NCBI GenBank assembly: GCA_031266345.1
Contig: JAISBD010000022.1
Span: forward strand, 16,451-80,450
Direction: 5' to 3'
Origin: Puniceicoccales bacterium
GTDB taxonomy: Bacteria > Verrucomicrobiota > Verrucomicrobiia > Opitutales > JAIRKQ01
Length of the DNA: 64,000 nt
Within the stretch, counting starts at the first letter, position 1; every line of letters begins with the position of its first letter. The position numbers are program-made. This document shows, piece by piece, positions 36,401-42,400 of this stretch.

Positions 36401-39400
36401 TCAACGGTCGAAATCCGAAGCCAACTGAATATGCCCAATTGGCTGCCCAGCATTTGCAATTTCCGATTTACGAGAAGGAATTGAAGGCACGCATTGACAC
36501 ACTAATTGCCTGTTCAATTGGGAAAATTTCCGCCCCTGAAATTTTAGCCATGCTTGAGCGTTTTTTGGATATGTCCCAAATGGTGACCAGTGGAAATATT
36601 GCCCTATTAGGCGATAGCGACGCAGCAAGTTGGGGTTCGCCTGCCGTGAAGGAAAGTTTGTGCACCGGATTTAGTGTTGAATACGATGAGGACGGTAATA
36701 TTCACACCGTTGCCGATGTTCCAAGTGACGCGATCGCCGAATTGCGGGAGAATTACGACATTGTCTCTCCCGAATTGAAATACTTGAATTGGAAGAAAAA
36801 GCCCGTTTTAATGTTTTCAAAATATGACATGTTTCGGGAATATTTTCAGGTATCGCGCCCTAGCCTAATAGGAAGAGACCTGGGGGAATAGCTGAGAAAA
36901 AAGCGAGTAAGGGACTAAATTATTGATTGTAACTACTTCAAATATATGCTATTGCTTAGCTATGGATAGCTATGAGCAAGGCGATATTTTTAGCGAAGAG
37001 ACCGGGAAATGGGAAGGCGAAAAGTACGTGCCGCTATCTGTCCGCATGCGGCCAAAATACCTGGCAGATGTGGTGGGCCAGAAAAATATCATAGGGGAGG
37101 ATTGCCTGCTACCGAAAATAATAAAAACGGCAAATTTTAGCAGCATTATCCTATACGGCCCTCCTGGATGCGGAAAAACAACCCTTGCGGAGGTCATTTC
37201 CAATGAAACAAATTCGAAATTTATCAAAATTAATGCCGTTTTGTCAAATGTCGCCGAATTGCGCGAAGTCCTATTTAGGGGGCGAAAGTTTGGTCGCGTT
37301 GTGCTATTCATCGACGAGATTCACCGCTTCAACAAGGCGCAGCAGGACCTGTTACTCTATGACGTCGAAAACGGAAATGTGTCTCTGATAGGTGCAACAA
37401 CACACAATCCAGGCTTTTATGTGATTTCTCCACTGCTCAGTAGGAGTCACCTATTCAAGCTTGAGCCACTGTCGAAGGAGGAGATCTCAGCGGTACTGCT
37501 CAAGGCTCTCAGCGACGTTGATCTCGGCCTTGGTGCCTGCAAATGCCAGGTAGACGGCGACGTTATTACCCATATCGCCGCCATGTCGAATGGCGACCTG
37601 CGCTGGGCCCTAAATGCGCTCGAAACCATAGTCCTAAGCGTGCCCTGCGGGAGTACGATTAGGGAGCGTGAGTTGAAATGTTTTGCCCAGGAGCGGATGC
37701 TGAGGTATGACGCCAACGAAGATGATCACTATGACACCATCTCTGCTTTCATCAAAAGCATGCGCGGATGCGACCCGGATGCGGCCATATATTGGCTGGC
37801 AAAGATGGTCAACAGCGGCGAAGATCCGCGCTTCATTGCTCGCAGGTTGGTAATTTTTGCTTCCGAAGACGTTGGCTTAGCCGATTCCCGCGCTTTGCCA
37901 CTGGCAATAGCTTGCTTTGAAGCCTGTGAAAAGATAGGCTTGCCGGAATGCCAGCTAAATCTCGCCCACACCACTGTTTTTATGGCCACGGCACCGAAGA
38001 GCAATTCCGCGTATATGGCTCTAAACAGGGCAACAAAATCGATAATGACCAATGGAGCCCAAGAAGTTCCCGTTTGGTTACGCGATGCCCACGGTGCCGC
38101 GAATGAGAGAGCTGGCAATGCTAAGAATTACCTATATAGCCACGAATTTGGTAAAAACATCAGCGGGCAGGCCTACATGTTGACGCAAGAAAAATTTTAT
38201 TTCCCCAAGCAATCGGGTGCGGAAGTGGCCATTGTCGAGCGGCTGGGGGAACTAGAAAATTTGCGTAAAGATTTGAAAAAAAATGTTTAAAATAAAGAAT
38301 AGCGGCCAATGGAGCCCAAGAAGTTCCCGTTTGGTTGCGCGATGCCCACGGTGCCGCGAATGAGAGGGCTGGCAATGCTAAGAATTACCTATATAGCCAC
38401 GAATTGGGTAAAAACATCAGCGGGCAGGCCTACATGTTGACGCAAGAAAAATTTTATTTCCCCAAGCAATCTGGTGCGGAAGTGGCCATTGTCGAGCGGC
38501 TGGGAGAGCTAGAAAATTTGCGTAAAGATTTGAAAAGAAATGTTTAAAATGAAGAGATTACCCACTTTGGGGTCAATTTTCCCAAGCAATTCTTATTGAC
38601 ATATTTTTGAAAGGCTTTGTTATGGACACAGTGGGGTCGTAGCTTAGTTGGTAGAGCGTGTCGTTCGCAATGACAAGGTCGTCGGTTCGAATCCGATCGA
38701 CTCCACCAGTTTCAAGGCCGCCAAAACACAGAGCTTCCAGAGGATCAGGGGAAACGAAAATTAAACATTAGAAAAGCTCCATTGCTTCAATATTGCCCAA
38801 AAATTAATTGCCTGCAAGAAAGCTCAAAAAAAGAGCGGCGTGAAAATTTCATTGCCGCAAATTTCATTTTGAGAGAAAAAGTTAGAGCAAAGAAGAGTAG
38901 CGGGCAGTTATTCTGAAACTTCGAACAACCTTTCTCCAGTTACTCTGGGGCTTTGGATAGTTTTCCTGGTAATCCCTATTAGCTGCTAGCCGCTGGGCGA
39001 CTCCGAACAACTCGACTCGGGCAACTGTTAGGAAATTTCTAATAGTTCGGCTTATGTCTTTGATACTTAGATGTTTGCCTGCTATTCATCTCCGCGGGCG
39101 TGGCAGGCACAAAGGGGTAGTGCTCCAGGTCAGCGAGCCAATTCGCCGCCGCCTCCCGTGCTCACCGGAAGTCACCGCTCCTCGCCTTATAGAGCAAGTC
39201 AAGCAGATTATCCCCGCTTTCCCCCGTGGCGAAGTCCTTCCACACACCGCTCTTATCTCCACAAGTACATATTTTCGTGCTCGTCTGAAGTTCTCGCGTG
39301 GAGTCATTAAATTTGCAACGTCTCAGCTTATATCTCTGATACTGAGATATTTGTCCGCTATTCATCCTCGCGGGCGTGGCAGGTGCAAAGGGGTAGCGTT

Positions 39401-42400
39401 GTAGGTCATTAAGCTCACAGCACTTCGGCTTATGTCTTTGATGCCGAGATATTTGCCCGCTATCCATCCTCACGAGCAAACTTGCAACATCTTGGCTTAT
39501 ATCTCTGATATTGAAATACTTGCCCGCCTTCCATCCTCATGGGTAAATTCATAGCGCCTCGGCTTATATCTCTGATACTGAGATATTTGTCCGCTATTCA
39601 TCCTCGCGAGCGTGACAGGTGCAAAGGGGTAGCGCTACGGGTCAGCGACCCAATCCGCCGCTGCCTCCCGTGCTCGTCTGAAATCGCCGCCAAGATTAAT
39701 ATCCAGCGCCTATCGCCAGTGCCAACATTTCGTGCTCGTCTGAAGTTCTCGCGTGGAGTCATTAAATTTGCAACGTCTCAGCTTATATCTCTGATACTGA
39801 GATGTTTATCCGCTTTCCATCCTTGCGAGCGTGACAGGTGCAAAGGGGTAGCGTTGCGGGTCAGCGACCTAATTCGCCGCCAGCATTCCGTGCTCGCCGG
39901 AAATTCGCGCGTATGGGATCATTAAATTTGCAACATCTTGGCTTATATCTCTGATACTGAGATATTTGTCCGCTTTCCATCTCCGCGAGCGTGACAGGTG
40001 CAAAGGGGGAGCGTTGTAGGTCATTAAACTTGCAATACTTCGGCTTATATCTCTGATATTGAAATACTTGCCCGCTATCCATCCTCATGGGTAAATTCAT
40101 AGCGCCTCGGCTTATGTCTCTGATGCTGAGATATTTGTCCGTTATTCATTCTCGCGGGCGTGGCATGCGCAAAGGGGTAGCGTTGTAGGTCATCAAATTC
40201 ATAGCACTTCGGCTTATATCTCTGATGCCGAGATATTTGCCCGCTATCCATCCTCACGAGCAAACTTGCAACATCTTGGCTTATATCTCTGATATTGAAA
40301 TACTTGCCCGCCTTCCATCCTCACGAGCAAACTTGCAACATCTTGGCTTATATCTCTGATATTGAAATACTTGCCCGCCTTCCATCCTCATGGGCAAATT
40401 CATAGCACCTCGGTTTATATCTTTGATATTGAGATACTTATCCGCTATTCATCTCCGCGAGCGCGGCAGGCGCAAAGGGGCCACCTCAGTCGGGCTCAAT
40501 GGGGTGGCAGCGCGGGGCTTGCTATTTATTTTCGCCCCTTTTATCTACGGTAGTGGTTTGCATCCGTGACTCGATGAACTCAATCAAGTCTCGCTCTCGG
40601 AATCTCCGGGCCCCGCCCAGTTTAACTGATTTTAGTCCGGGATAGCGATTGGAGTATATCCAATCTTCCAGTGTGTGCTTTTTTATGTTAAGAAACGCTG
40701 CCGCTTCTTGAACATTTAATAGCTTACTGTAGCTGCTGTGCTGCTGTGCTGCTGTGCTGCTGTGCTGCTGTGCTGCTGTGCTGCTGTGCTGCTGTGCTGC
40801 TGTGCTGCTGTGCTGCTGTGCGAATTTTACTAACCATGTTCCATATGTAAAGAATATTTTGCATTTGTGAAGGTTTTATGATAAAATTTTGTGAAATTTT
40901 AGCAAAAAATGGAAAATAAGCTCCCTTTATGACTTATTTCTCCCCCTTTACGTGAAGCTAAACGCCCTTTCTAATTCAGCACGCGCCGGATCATTGGACA
41001 ACCGTGCATAAATTGCTGTGGACTGCAGCGATTTATGTCCCAGCGATTTCCCAATTATTGTTAAACTTGAACCTGTTGTTGCTTGGTAACTCGCCAATGT
41101 TCTTCTGAGGTCGTGGATGCGTAAATTTTCCAGCCCTGCTCGCTCTAGGATTCTTTTCCATGCCGTTTTTGGCTCCTGGATATGCCCACTTTTGCTGTCA
41201 TTGCTTGGGAATGTCCACGGCGATGATTCCCTTAGATGCATGCGACTATTTAATATTTCTAAAGCTTCATCTAATAAGGGTACGCGTACGGGCTCACTGT
41301 TTTTCGTATCCGCTATGCGCCACTCACTTATGCTGAAGTCTATGTCCTCCCTAATGCATGGATAAAACGTTGGATTTACGGGCTCCTGTGTATAAGCATG
41401 CAAGGAAAAATTTCGTGTATTCTTATTCGGCTCATTTTCTAAAGCCTCCAAAAATTTCGGTAATTCGTCTTTTAAAATAAATCTATCGCGTTTTATTTCC
41501 CTAAATTTTTTTACACCAATGGCAGGATTCGTCCCTTCCCAGCCCCAGGAGATCATTTTATTGAAAATTGCACGAATGTATTCCAAAACACTGTTGGCTT
41601 CGTATTTGCTATTTTCTTGCCCGATTTGATTGTGTACTTCTCGCATATCCTGTTTGGTTATCGAAGAAAGTTTTCTTTGAGACAAATATGGTAAAACTTT
41701 TTTAAGGCGCAGTTCAGCATCTTTCCATGATCTTGGTTTCATTCCCAGCTTGGCATATTTTTCCATGTATTCCTGATAAGCTTCCCCGAATGTCTTTTCA
41801 CTGGCCTGCTTCTCCTTCTCCTCCAGGGGATTTTTTTCGATTTTTTTACGCGTTTTTCAAGAAATTGAAAATTAAAGTTAAGCGGAAATCGTGATTATTT
41901 GGGGAAATTTCGGAGTTTTCGTAAAAATATGAGAGCTTGAAGTGACGGATTTTAGATGCGTGAGTTCTTTTTAAACATATGTGTACCCTTGCTATAGTGG
42001 GGATGTATTTCTCGTCTGAACACGCATATTTATATGATTGAAACGCTTCATTTTGTGATTTAGCGGCCGCTTTGATGCATGGGATAATTTTTTATTTCTT
42101 TTGTAAATACAGTGATAAGGTTTAGGCTAAGGTATTCCTGTGATAGTATTTCTGTGAAATTTTTATCCATTTTGAGCAGCAAAAGAGTCCTAATTCGGGG
42201 AAAAATATTTAAAAACTTCTTGACAAAATTATTCTGATTATTTCTTAGAGATTGTTCGTTCATTGATGCAGGGTGGAGCAGCTCGGCAGCTCGTCAGGCT
42301 CATAACCTGAAGGTCGTTGGTTCAAATCCAACCCCTGCACCCAATTTTTATGCCGCTTAAACACAGGGATCGCAGGAGATCAGGGGAAATGAAAAATGAG

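What the first reader, a model, noticed from the sequence alone, without database searches (positions are those of the whole stretch)
39049..40480. 1.4-kb nested tandem array of 13 inverted-repeat cores next to xis/int; architecture not matching CRISPR, integron, REP or known RNA arrays
Seen: 13 same-orientation copies of a ~45-bp core (consensus GGCTTATATCTCTGATACTGAGATATTTGTCCGCTATTCATCCTC). Each has 7-bp inverted arms ATATCTC/GAGATAT around a 7-nt spacer TGATACT, perfect in copies 2, 5 and 7. Start-to-start spacings fall into classes of 67 (x6), 101-102 (x3), 159, 220 and 277 bp. Longer units equal the short unit plus nested internal insertions. The 22-bp short linker (ACGAGCAAACTTGCAACATCTT or ATGGGTAAATTCATAGCGCCTC) gains a 35-nt segment CGTGGCAGGTGCAAAGGGGTAGCGTTGTAGGT, and then further sequence. 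The set therefore looks like a deletion series of one ~277-bp ancestor. Block 39326-39560 recurs at 40109-40411 (higher-order duplication). The array begins at the flank-repeat breakpoint and ends 42 bp from the xis-like stop. Track ORFs here are just the repeat read in different frames, and 67 is not a multiple of 3. Inference: short inverted arms around a 6-8 bp spacer is the geometry of tyrosine-recombinase core sites. The array could be stacked recombination sites or scars of serial integration and decay at one att site. It could also be a transcribed repeat RNA, given that tandem-repeat antitoxin RNAs of type III TA systems are processed unit by unit. I cannot assign it to a described class.
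Basis: partly seen in the sequence, partly recalled or inferred. Interest (0 to 1): 0.75.

Follow-up and report, generated by a model that had tools for sequence, protein, structure and literature searches.

The report
Tandem array of primase-gene fragments
The 1.4-kb repeat array is real, but it is a tandemly multiplied and then partly deleted internal piece of a DNA-primase gene from a dead integrated mobile element, so it is most likely genomic debris and not a new recombination-site or RNA system.

Summary
There are 13 same-orientation cores at 39049-40480, spaced 276, 102, 67, 67, 219, 160, 102, 67, 102, 67, 67 and 67 bp, with none elsewhere in the window. The interpretation mostly does not hold. 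On the minus strand, the strand of xis and int, the longest unit encodes KIC..WKDFATGESGDNLLDLL..GDFRRAREAAANWL. This is the N-terminal domain of the Toprim primases that follow xis in related Puniceicoccales tRNA-associated islands (int, xis, primase, AAA_25 helicase in L010; xis, primase, helicase in L004). The 45-bp "core" aligns without gaps to the poorly conserved linker after that domain. The 276-bp unit is therefore one contiguous, in-frame stretch of about 92 codons of a primase gene. It was duplicated head to tail and later shortened by internal deletions. The core is no better conserved than its flanks, and its hairpin shows no compensatory changes. Rfam finds nothing. The integrase is frameshifted and truncated, xis has no in-frame start, and no Toprim domain follows the array. 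Related arrays exist at a second locus of the same MAG and on one metagenome contig. One puzzle remains: the primase-domain copies diverged under purifying selection (pN/pS about 0.1). The array is a new member of a known kind and of low interest.

The parts
39049..40480 (-). Tandem array of 13 units. In coding (minus-strand) order the unit lengths are a partial 69, then 67, 67, 67, 102, 67, 102, 160, 219, 67, 67, 102 and 276 bp. Each unit is a complete or internally deleted copy of one primase-gene segment of about 92 codons.
39049..39324 (-). Longest unit (276 bp, 92 codons, in frame). It encodes ..CKFNDSTRELQTSTKICTCGDKSGVWKDFATGESGDNLLDLLYKARSGDFR*AREAAANWLADLEHYPFVPATPAEMNSRQTSKYQRHKP. 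This is the primase N-terminal domain plus linker, with one in-frame TGA stop.
39118..39244 (-). Stretch with direct DNA homology to intact primase genes of related elements: 73% to L004 807-933 and 75% to L006 6024-6146.
39162..39479 (-). Longest open frame that contains the primase domain. It is annotated in the MAG as hypothetical protein LBJ94_02985 (P0002, 101 aa). It ends at the TGA inside the domain, and no Toprim domain follows.
39561..39605 (+). Consensus 45-bp 'core' with perfect arms ATATCTC / GAGATAT. On the minus strand it reads ..MNSGQISQYQRYKP, which is linker-region coding sequence.
40522..40722 (-). xis/AlpA-like HTH_17 reading frame (Pfam E=2.5e-12). There is no ATG, GTG or TTG in frame upstream of it.
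40727..40821 (.). 8-bp microsatellite (CTGTGCTG, 11.8 copies) at the 5' edge of xis. The only upstream ATG reads through it out of frame with the HTH.
40948..41766 (-). Integrase pseudogene. It lacks the Arm-DNA-bind_3 N-terminus, and the catalytic-Arg box LYTGARKSNVLSM lies in another frame followed by a stop.
38633..38708 (+). tRNA-Ala(CGC), left border of the island remnant.
42267..42343 (+). tRNA-Met(CAT), right border of the island remnant. Its 5' side faces int, the same geometry as the partial tRNA next to int in L010.
38675..39049 (+). Left copy of the diverged flanking direct repeat. Segments 38675-38760 and 39021-39049 match 42310-42395 (76%) and 42468-42496 (90%).
42310..42496 (+). 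Right copy of the flanking direct repeat.

Best explanation
The array is the fossil of the primase gene of a tRNA-associated integrative element (int, xis, Toprim primase, AAA_25 helicase) in a Puniceicoccales (Verrucomicrobiota) genome.

An internal, in-frame segment of about 92 codons was duplicated head to tail. This segment covers the N-terminal 'WKDFATGESGD' domain and the variable linker after it. Copies were then multiplied and shuffled by slippage or unequal crossing-over. They were shortened by internal deletions between short microhomologies, going from 276 to 219, 160, 102 and 67 bp. The shortest 67-bp units were re-amplified.

The 45-bp 'core' with its 7-bp inverted repeat is the part of the linker-coding sequence that every deletion derivative still keeps. 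It is not a protein-binding or RNA module. The rest of the element is dead too: int is frameshifted and truncated, xis has no in-frame start, and there is no Toprim domain or helicase.

Shown directly: the homology of the unit to primase genes, the synteny, the loss of reading frame, and the lack of special conservation or covariation in the core.

Inferred: the order of events, the slippage mechanism, and the present lack of function.
For: 1. A peptide read from the longest unit finds 107 proteins by exhaustive HMMER search. The match always lies at residues ~40-110 of longer proteins. These carry Toprim_2+AAA_25/DnaB_C, DUF7146+Toprim_3 or D5_N+DUF5906+Pox_D5, or match phrog_239 'DNA primase/helicase'. 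The closest is P0006, at 69% identity.
2. Synteny in L004 is xis(HTH_17), a 35-aa ORF, P0006, AAA_25. In L010 it is int(Arm-DNA-bind_3+Phage_integrase), xis, primase, AAA_25. The L010 int and xis are 67% and 74% identical in DNA to the window's. The array therefore sits exactly where the primase gene belongs.
3. There is DNA-level homology of 39118-39244 to primase genes.
4. Gapless protein alignments continue through the 'core'. Array KPRCCKFND aligns with L010 KPKHHPFND, and array KLRCCKFNDPIHG aligns with P0009 KLEQHDFKDLVAG, at the same distance from the domain. The sequence before KIC (RELQTSTKIC) resembles GEPGKSLKIC upstream in the gene. This places the duplication junction there.
5. 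The core diverges at 0.163 per site, the same as its flanks, against 0.086 for the protein domain. Core and linker show no codon-position bias.
6. For the hairpin, 89.9% of cells pair against 90.4% in shuffles, with 0 compensatory pairs.
7. Rfam gives nothing. Stops occur in all three frames.
8. The int and xis defects are shown.
9. A relative, L005, is a tRNA-flanked mini-island. Its frameshifted primase already carries three separate two-copy internal tandem duplications. This looks like an earlier stage of the same process.
10. The same genome has a 257-bp tandem duplication of the mgsA 3' end.
Against: - Among the four long units that keep the primase domain, pN/pS is 0.08-0.13 with pS of 0.16-0.48. 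Plain junk that diverged after duplication should give a ratio near 1.
- Arrays with the same unit classes (67A, 67B, 102, ~160, ~220, 276) occur at a second locus of the same MAG and on metagenome contig L003. The structure has therefore persisted and spread.
- The perfect-arm hairpin is thermodynamically real (z about -3).
- No expression or population data could be consulted.
Confidence: 0.75

Rival explanations
1. The array is maintained because it is still used. One version is that short ORFs encode a free-standing primase N-terminal domain (P0002 in the window; L003 153-413 and 820-1302; P0003 at the second locus). Such a domain could interfere with the replication of incoming related elements. 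Another version is that the array titrates a factor of those elements.
For: - Purifying selection on the 31-codon domain among array copies: pN/pS 0.08-0.13, and 9 of 14 variable sites at third positions, P=0.017.
- Three of four copies lie in open frames with a start codon.
- Arrays persist at three or more loci.
Against: - The sample is only 14 variable sites.
- The ORFs differ in start, length and end.
- The fourth copy has a G-to-R change in the motif and only a 50-aa frame.
- Domain B of the same fold evolves without codon bias.
- There are no Pfam, PHROG or PADLOC hits for the ORFs.
- The low pN/pS can be inherited from a time when the copies were part of working genes.
Confidence: 0.1
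2. The array is a cis-acting replication element: an amplified origin or iteron set lying inside the initiator gene, bound by the element's primase-helicase. The lambda ori inside gene O is the model.
For: - Repeats with dyad symmetry lie inside or next to a replication-initiator gene.
- Origins inside initiator genes are established for lambdoid phages (background knowledge).
Against: - Intact relatives show no iterons or dyad repeats in the homologous gene segment.
- Unit lengths of 67-276 bp are not helically phased short iterons.
- The core is not conserved above background.
- The element has no helicase or Toprim domain left.
Confidence: 0.04
3. The cores are stacked tyrosine-recombinase core sites, or scars of serial integrations at one att site.
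For: - The geometry is 7-bp inverted arms around a 7-nt spacer.
- The array abuts the flank-repeat breakpoint at 39049.
- In L003 the array also ends within 10 nt of a core end.
Against: - The core is coding-derived primase linker sequence.
- No core copy lies at the other island border, and the core has no similarity to the flank repeats.
- The arms are degenerate in many copies with no compensation.
- The deletions are internal to units, not between cores.
- At the MAG's second locus the array ends in the middle of domain B (P0103).
- The integrase is dead.
Confidence: 0.03
4. The array is a transcribed repeat RNA that is processed unit by unit, similar to a ToxI antitoxin or another structured RNA array.
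For: - On the + strand the hairpin folds with z of -2.8 to -3.2 in perfect-arm copies.
- One-sided changes often give G-U pairs on the + strand.
Against: - No Rfam match at the gathering threshold or at E<=1.
- No compensatory changes, and shuffles pair equally well.
- The 102-nt units fold no better than shuffles, with z of -0.3 to -0.5.
- No endoribonuclease toxin gene is adjacent. The neighbours are xis and a tRNA.
- Promoter-like and terminator-like sites are not enriched and are not periodic.
Confidence: 0.03
5. The array is an assembly artefact of a short-read MAG.
For: - The source is a MAG.
- Logan contigs of run SRR14710922 stop short of the island on one side (window position ~37533) and begin at its right border on the other (~42318).
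- The longest exact internal repeat is 101 bp.
Against: - The units differ from each other by 3-20%.
- An independent metagenome contig (L003) and a second MAG contig carry arrays with the same unit classes.
Confidence: 0.03

Closest known systems
Toprim (DnaG-like) primase plus AAA_25/RepA-like helicase replication module of tRNA-associated integrative islands with a P4-type integrase and AlpA/Xis (HTH_17)
   Same: The gene order int, xis, primase position is the same. The long units are 62-69% identical in protein and about 73-75% in DNA to the N-terminal domain of these primases in other Puniceicoccales MAGs (L004, L006-L013). A tRNA lies next to int in the same geometry as in L010.
   Different: Only about codons 45-140 of the gene are present. 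They are multiplied 13 times and mostly internally deleted. There is no Toprim domain, no helicase and no intact reading frame.
Minisatellite or VNTR-type tandem arrays formed by duplication of gene fragments in decaying mobile elements or pseudogenes
   Same: The units are head to tail and show higher-order blocks. Unit order is shuffled between loci. Deletion variants arise at microhomologies. There is no conserved motif beyond common descent.
   Different: The nesting is unusually rich, with five or six length classes shared by different loci. There is also a signal of past purifying selection on one sub-segment.
Lambda-type origin iterons inside the initiator gene (ori in gene O)
   Same: Repeats with dyad symmetry lie within a replication-initiator coding sequence.
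   Different: The units are 67-276 bp and not about 19 bp. They are not phased. They are absent from intact homologues. No AT-rich unwinding region was identified.
Integron attC cassette arrays, CRISPR arrays and ToxI-type repeat antitoxins
   Same: All have same-orientation repeats containing an imperfect palindrome, near a recombinase in the case of integrons.
   Different: The 'spacers' are themselves repeated and nested. The integrase is a P4-type arm-binding integrase, not IntI. There are no cas genes and no toxin gene. The unit length is variable.

Membership tests
Tandemly duplicated gene fragment (pseudogene-derived tandem repeat) | The unit is homologous to one contiguous segment of a known gene | tested here: met
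   HMMER, BLASTP and tblastn hits to primase N-termini. The gapless alignment runs through the core. DNA homology is shown.
Tandemly duplicated gene fragment (pseudogene-derived tandem repeat) | Head-to-tail copies at the gene's native position, with the reading frame lost | tested here: met
   The array lies directly downstream of xis, where the primase gene lies in L004 and L010. Stops occur in all frames.
Tyrosine-recombinase core or att sites | The same core is present at both element borders, or shared with attB | tested here: not met
   There is no core outside 39049-40480. The flank repeats do not resemble the core.
Tyrosine-recombinase core or att sites | Inverted binding arms conserved around a 6-8 bp overlap region | tested here: not met
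   Two of the 7 pairs are broken in the GAAATAC variant (5 window copies). Column conservation is no higher than in the flanks.
Tyrosine-recombinase core or att sites | Recombination by the cognate integrase | not testable with these tools
   The integrase here is a pseudogene. This needs an assay with the intact L010-type enzyme.
Integron cassette array (attC) | IntI-type integrase and attC sites separating unrelated cassettes | tested here: not met
   The integrase family is Arm-DNA-bind_3+Phage_integrase. The inter-core segments are mutually homologous deletion variants.
CRISPR array | Constant repeats separated by unique spacers of similar length | tested here: not met
   The linkers recur (two 22-bp types) and are nested. 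Spacings range from 67 to 276 bp.
Type III toxin-antitoxin repeat RNA (ToxI-like) | A short uniform tandem repeat immediately upstream of an endoribonuclease toxin gene on the same strand | tested here: not met
   The neighbours are xis and tRNA-Ala. The units are not uniform. There is no Rfam hit.
REP / MITE dispersed repeat | Many dispersed copies across the genome | tested here: inconclusive
   There are none elsewhere in this 64-kb window. Only clustered arrays are known (L003 and the second MAG locus). The whole genome was not available.
Iteron-type replication origin | Short phased direct repeats bound by the initiator, also present in intact relatives | tested here: not met
   There are no such repeats in the homologous segment of L004, L006 or L010. 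Binding was not testable.
Known structured RNA family (Rfam 15) | Covariance-model match | tested here: not met
   No match at the gathering threshold in the whole window apart from two tRNAs, and none at E<=1 in 38900-40600.

The most novel reading that the evidence does not exclude
The array is not debris but a domesticated remnant. On this reading it is kept at several loci because it produces free-standing primase N-terminal-domain peptides, or offers decoy sequence, that interfere with replication of related tRNA-island elements entering the cell. That would explain the pN/pS of about 0.1 in the domain copies and the persistence of the same unit classes in different loci.
Probability: 0.08. 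Interest if true: 0.6.

Novelty: new member of a known kind. Interest (0 to 1): 0.2.

Why it matters
It removes a candidate 'unclassifiable' repeat system from the list. What looked like stacked recombination sites is the linker-coding part of a primase gene, multiplied and eroded.

It also gives a worked example of a general point. Translating the 'non-coding' strand of a repeat and running an exhaustive profile search can reveal a gene-fragment origin that DNA-level searches miss. Three collection-wide scans for the core found nothing.

As biology it documents a family of small tRNA-associated int-xis-primase-helicase islands in Puniceicoccales MAGs. These decay through internal tandem duplications.

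Two minor leads remain: apparent purifying selection on the repeated primase domain, and a conserved microsatellite at the 5' edge of xis.

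Tried and rejected
Searches that returned nothing:
- Exact IUPAC scans for the core (GYTTATRTCTYTGATRYYKARATRYTTRYCYG) in genome contigs, viral contigs and metagenome contigs gave 0 hits each.
- The search for related loci with P0001 in metagenome contigs gave 62 pattern hits, none confirmed.
- The look-up of encoding contigs found no record for the window integrase ORF, P0003, P0005, P0103 or P0110. The MAG's second array locus (LBJ94_00655-00670) could therefore not be read.
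- Pfam and PADLOC on the array ORFs, and PHROGs on P0001, gave nothing. NCBIfam gave only weak hits to PRK07078 and to the TraI C-terminus.
- A PDB profile search with the domain gave nothing.
- Rfam gave nothing at the gathering threshold or at E<=1.
- The promoter and terminator scan was not enriched and showed no periodic signal.
- Literature searches found no description of such an array.

Ideas considered and rejected:
- CRISPR, integron attC, ToxI-like RNA, iteron origin, and att or serial-integration scars. Reasons are given in the membership table.
- Three repeat-rich 'homologues' (P0010, P0021, P0052) in the HMMER list were dismissed as low-complexity false positives after reading them.
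- I considered that the core might be the gene's true 5' end (ATG AAT AGC..). I rejected this because the GGAG abuts the ATG, and because the gapless alignment to the downstream linker of three homologues fits better.

Full report
**1. The observation**

The region 39049-40480 contains 13 copies of a 45-bp core. All are on the + strand, at 39049, 39325, 39427, 39494, 39561, 39780, 39940, 40042, 40109, 40211, 40278, 40345 and 40412. Spacings are 276, 102, 67, 67, 219, 160, 102, 67, 102, 67, 67 and 67 bp.

A 29-nt core pattern with up to 3 mismatches hits 10 times against 0 expected. Nothing similar lies elsewhere in the 64 kb. TRF and the repeat finder confirm the 67-bp and 160-bp periods and the higher-order block 39308-39605 matching 40092-40389 at 88%.

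One correction: the arms are also perfect in copy 10. The array begins exactly where a diverged flank repeat ends, with 39021-39049 matching 42468-42496 at 90%. It ends 41 nt from the xis stop.

**2. Context**

The window comes from a Puniceicoccales (Verrucomicrobiota) MAG. The array's ORFs are deposited as LBJ94_02985 to LBJ94_02995 on an 88.8-kb contig.

The array lies in a 3.5-kb island remnant between tRNA-Ala (38633-38708) and tRNA-Met (42267-42343). On the minus strand the order is int, xis, array.

The int ORF (40948-41766) matches Phage_integrase, but it is defective in two ways. It lacks the Arm-DNA-bind_3 N-terminus of its intact homologue in L010. Its LYTGARKSNVLSM box, which carries the catalytic arginine, sits in another frame followed by a stop.

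The xis frame (HTH_17, E=2.5e-12) has no start codon in frame. An 8-bp microsatellite of about 12 copies precedes it.

**3. What the units are**

Translating the minus strand shows that the 276-bp unit reads ..CKFNDSTRELQTSTKICTCGDKSGVWKDFATGESGDNLLDLLYKARSGDFR*AREAAANWLADLEHYPFVPATPAEMNS.QTSKYQRHKP.

A word-indexed search found only array-type ORFs. Three come from this MAG (two from this locus, one from a second locus) and one from a JGI contig.

An exhaustive HMMER search with P0001 found 107 proteins. In the long ones the match lies at residues ~40-110. It is followed by one of these domain sets:
- Toprim_2 + AAA_25/DnaB_C;
- DUF7146 + Toprim_3;
- D5_N + DUF5906 + Pox_D5.

P0017 matches phrog_239, 'DNA primase/helicase', across that N-terminus. 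The closest intact protein is P0006 (360 aa), at 69% identity. Its family carries a Toprim_2 domain and matches a DnaG-like model.

P0006 sits in L004 in the order xis(HTH_17), 35-aa ORF, P0006, AAA_25 helicase.

L010 is a Puniceicoccales reference MAG locus. It has intact int (389 aa), xis, primase (374 aa) and AAA_25 helicase. Its int and xis are 67% and 74% identical in DNA to the window's.

The array therefore occupies the primase position of this element family. Window 39118-39244 is 73-75% identical in DNA to the primase genes of L004 and L006.

**4. The 'core' is linker-coding sequence**

BLASTP to P0009 and tblastn to L010 extend without gaps from the conserved domain through the core:
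- array ...WLADPQRYPFAPATPAGMNSRQISQYQGHKLRCCKFNDPIHG against P0009 ...RLSNPERYKTEPYSPVRREHGYIFEFKQDKLEQHDFKDLVAG;
- array KPRCCKFND against L010 KPKHHPFND.

MAFFT aligns the same columns. Upstream, array RELQTSTKIC resembles GEPGKSLKIC of the intact genes.

The whole 276-bp unit is therefore one contiguous, in-frame piece of about 92 codons, roughly codons 45-140 of a primase of about 360 aa. The duplication junction lies between ..FND(ST) and (R)E...KIC. The inverted repeat ATATCTC/GAGATAT encodes ISQYQRY in the unconserved linker.

**5. Deletion series and relatives**

I aligned all 26 units of the window and of L003 (JGI 3300042643, 13 cores at 150-2223). The shorter classes are internal deletions of the long unit. 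The classes 67A, 67B, 102, 157-160, 219-227, 276 and about 300 occur in both arrays, but in different order.

Units of the same type can be 97% identical between the arrays. L003 shares no flanking sequence with the window and shows no int or xis in the 6 kb visible on one side.

A third array lies at LBJ94_00655-00670 on another contig of the MAG. It could not be retrieved.

None of 54 reference-genome loci carrying the primase domain has a core or more than one forward copy of the domain.

L005 is a tRNA-Phe..tRNA-Leu mini-island of the same family. Its frameshifted primase already carries three separate two-copy tandem duplications. This shows the same decay route at an earlier stage.

The host genome also has a 257-bp tandem duplication of the mgsA 3' end.

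**6. Tests of a function for the core**

- Among the four long units, divergence per site is 0.086 in the protein domain. It is 0.163 in the core, 0.159 just before it, 0.167 in domain B and 0.217 in the 5' linker. The core is not specially conserved.
- For the 7-bp stem, 89.9% of cells pair (counting G-U), against 90.4% in shuffles, with no compensatory change.
- Perfect-arm copies fold better than shuffles (z about -3). The 102-nt units do not.
- Rfam finds nothing even at E<=1.
- Promoter-like and terminator-like sites are not enriched.
- Intact relatives have no iterons in the homologous segment.

**7. What is left unexplained**

In the 31-codon domain A, the four copies differ mainly at synonymous sites. 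pN/pS is 0.08-0.13, and 9 of 14 variable sites are at third positions, P=0.017. Yet three of the four copies are broken right after that domain.

The simplest reading is that the copies diverged while still part of working genes. Two routes are possible: an ancestral primase with in-frame 92-codon repeats, or different element copies that later recombined.

A minority reading is that short domain-A ORFs are still used. The sample is small.

**8. Verdict**

The interpretation as recombination sites, integration scars or repeat RNA is not supported.

The array is a tandemly amplified and eroded fragment of a primase gene in a dead integrative element. It is a new member of a known kind (gene-fragment minisatellite), and interest is low.

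Confidence is about 0.75 that it is now functionless debris of this origin. The origin itself is close to certain.

Noticed in passing
window 40727-40821; L010 5468-5499; L006 5256-5295: A short tandem repeat sits at the 5' edge of xis in three related elements, but its unit and copy number differ: an 8-mer of about 12 copies in the window, the same 8-mer with 4 copies in L010, and a 10-mer with 4 copies in L006. In the window and L010 the only upstream ATG reads through the repeat and stops just after it, out of frame with the HTH. One extra 8-bp unit in the window would fuse the two frames. This is a candidate slipped-strand (phase-variable) switch on the excisionase, or it is decay.
   Followed up: partly
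window 38042-38555: A 257-bp two-copy tandem duplication (96% identity) covers the last ~250 bp of the mgsA/rarA-like AAA+ gene (ORF 36923-38290), just upstream of tRNA-Ala. It leaves a 70-aa gene-fragment ORF.
   Followed up: partly
window 38675-39049 and 42310-42496: The T-arm plus 3' trailer of tRNA-Ala and of tRNA-Met are diverged direct repeats (76-90% in two blocks, with about 190 bp of extra sequence in the left copy). They bracket the island remnant. It is unresolved whether they are old att sites or left-end remnants of two separate elements.
   Followed up: partly
window 40948-41766: The integrase is a pseudogene. The arm-binding N-terminus is missing, and the catalytic-Arg box is in a different frame with a stop. 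The 272-aa ORF passes through it by two compensating frame shifts.
   Followed up: yes
L005 861-3411: A mini-island lies between tRNA-Phe and tRNA-Leu. It holds an xis remnant homologous to the window's xis C-terminus, a second xis, and a frameshifted primase with three internal two-copy tandem duplications (periods of about 100, 132 and 150 bp). No integrase is present.
   Followed up: partly
L006-L013 (Puniceicoccales MAG loci): In most of these Puniceicoccales MAG loci the primase homologue lies roughly 0.8-1.5 kb from a tRNA gene, and the tRNA identity varies (Thr, Phe, Cys, His, Met). This suggests an element family that uses many tRNA targets. L010 has a partial tRNA 3' half (3985-4030, minus strand) just upstream of int.
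   Followed up: partly
L004 43-525: The xis-like ORF of the intact relative contains two tandem HTH_17 modules. The 100-nt segments at 151-250 and 355-454 are 74% identical.
   Followed up: no
window 29638-31000 and 34924-36891: There are type III secretion needle-like genes (T3SS_needle_F hits in the matching Logan contig) and a 655-aa protein with a weak PI3/PI4-kinase match, in a Verrucomicrobiota genome. Both hint at a host-associated lifestyle.
   Followed up: no
window 39049; L003 ~2213; P0103 C-terminus: In coding orientation the array's 3' end falls at a core end in the window and 10 nt inside a core in L003. At the MAG's second locus it falls in the middle of primase domain B. There is therefore no consistent boundary at the core.
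   Followed up: partly
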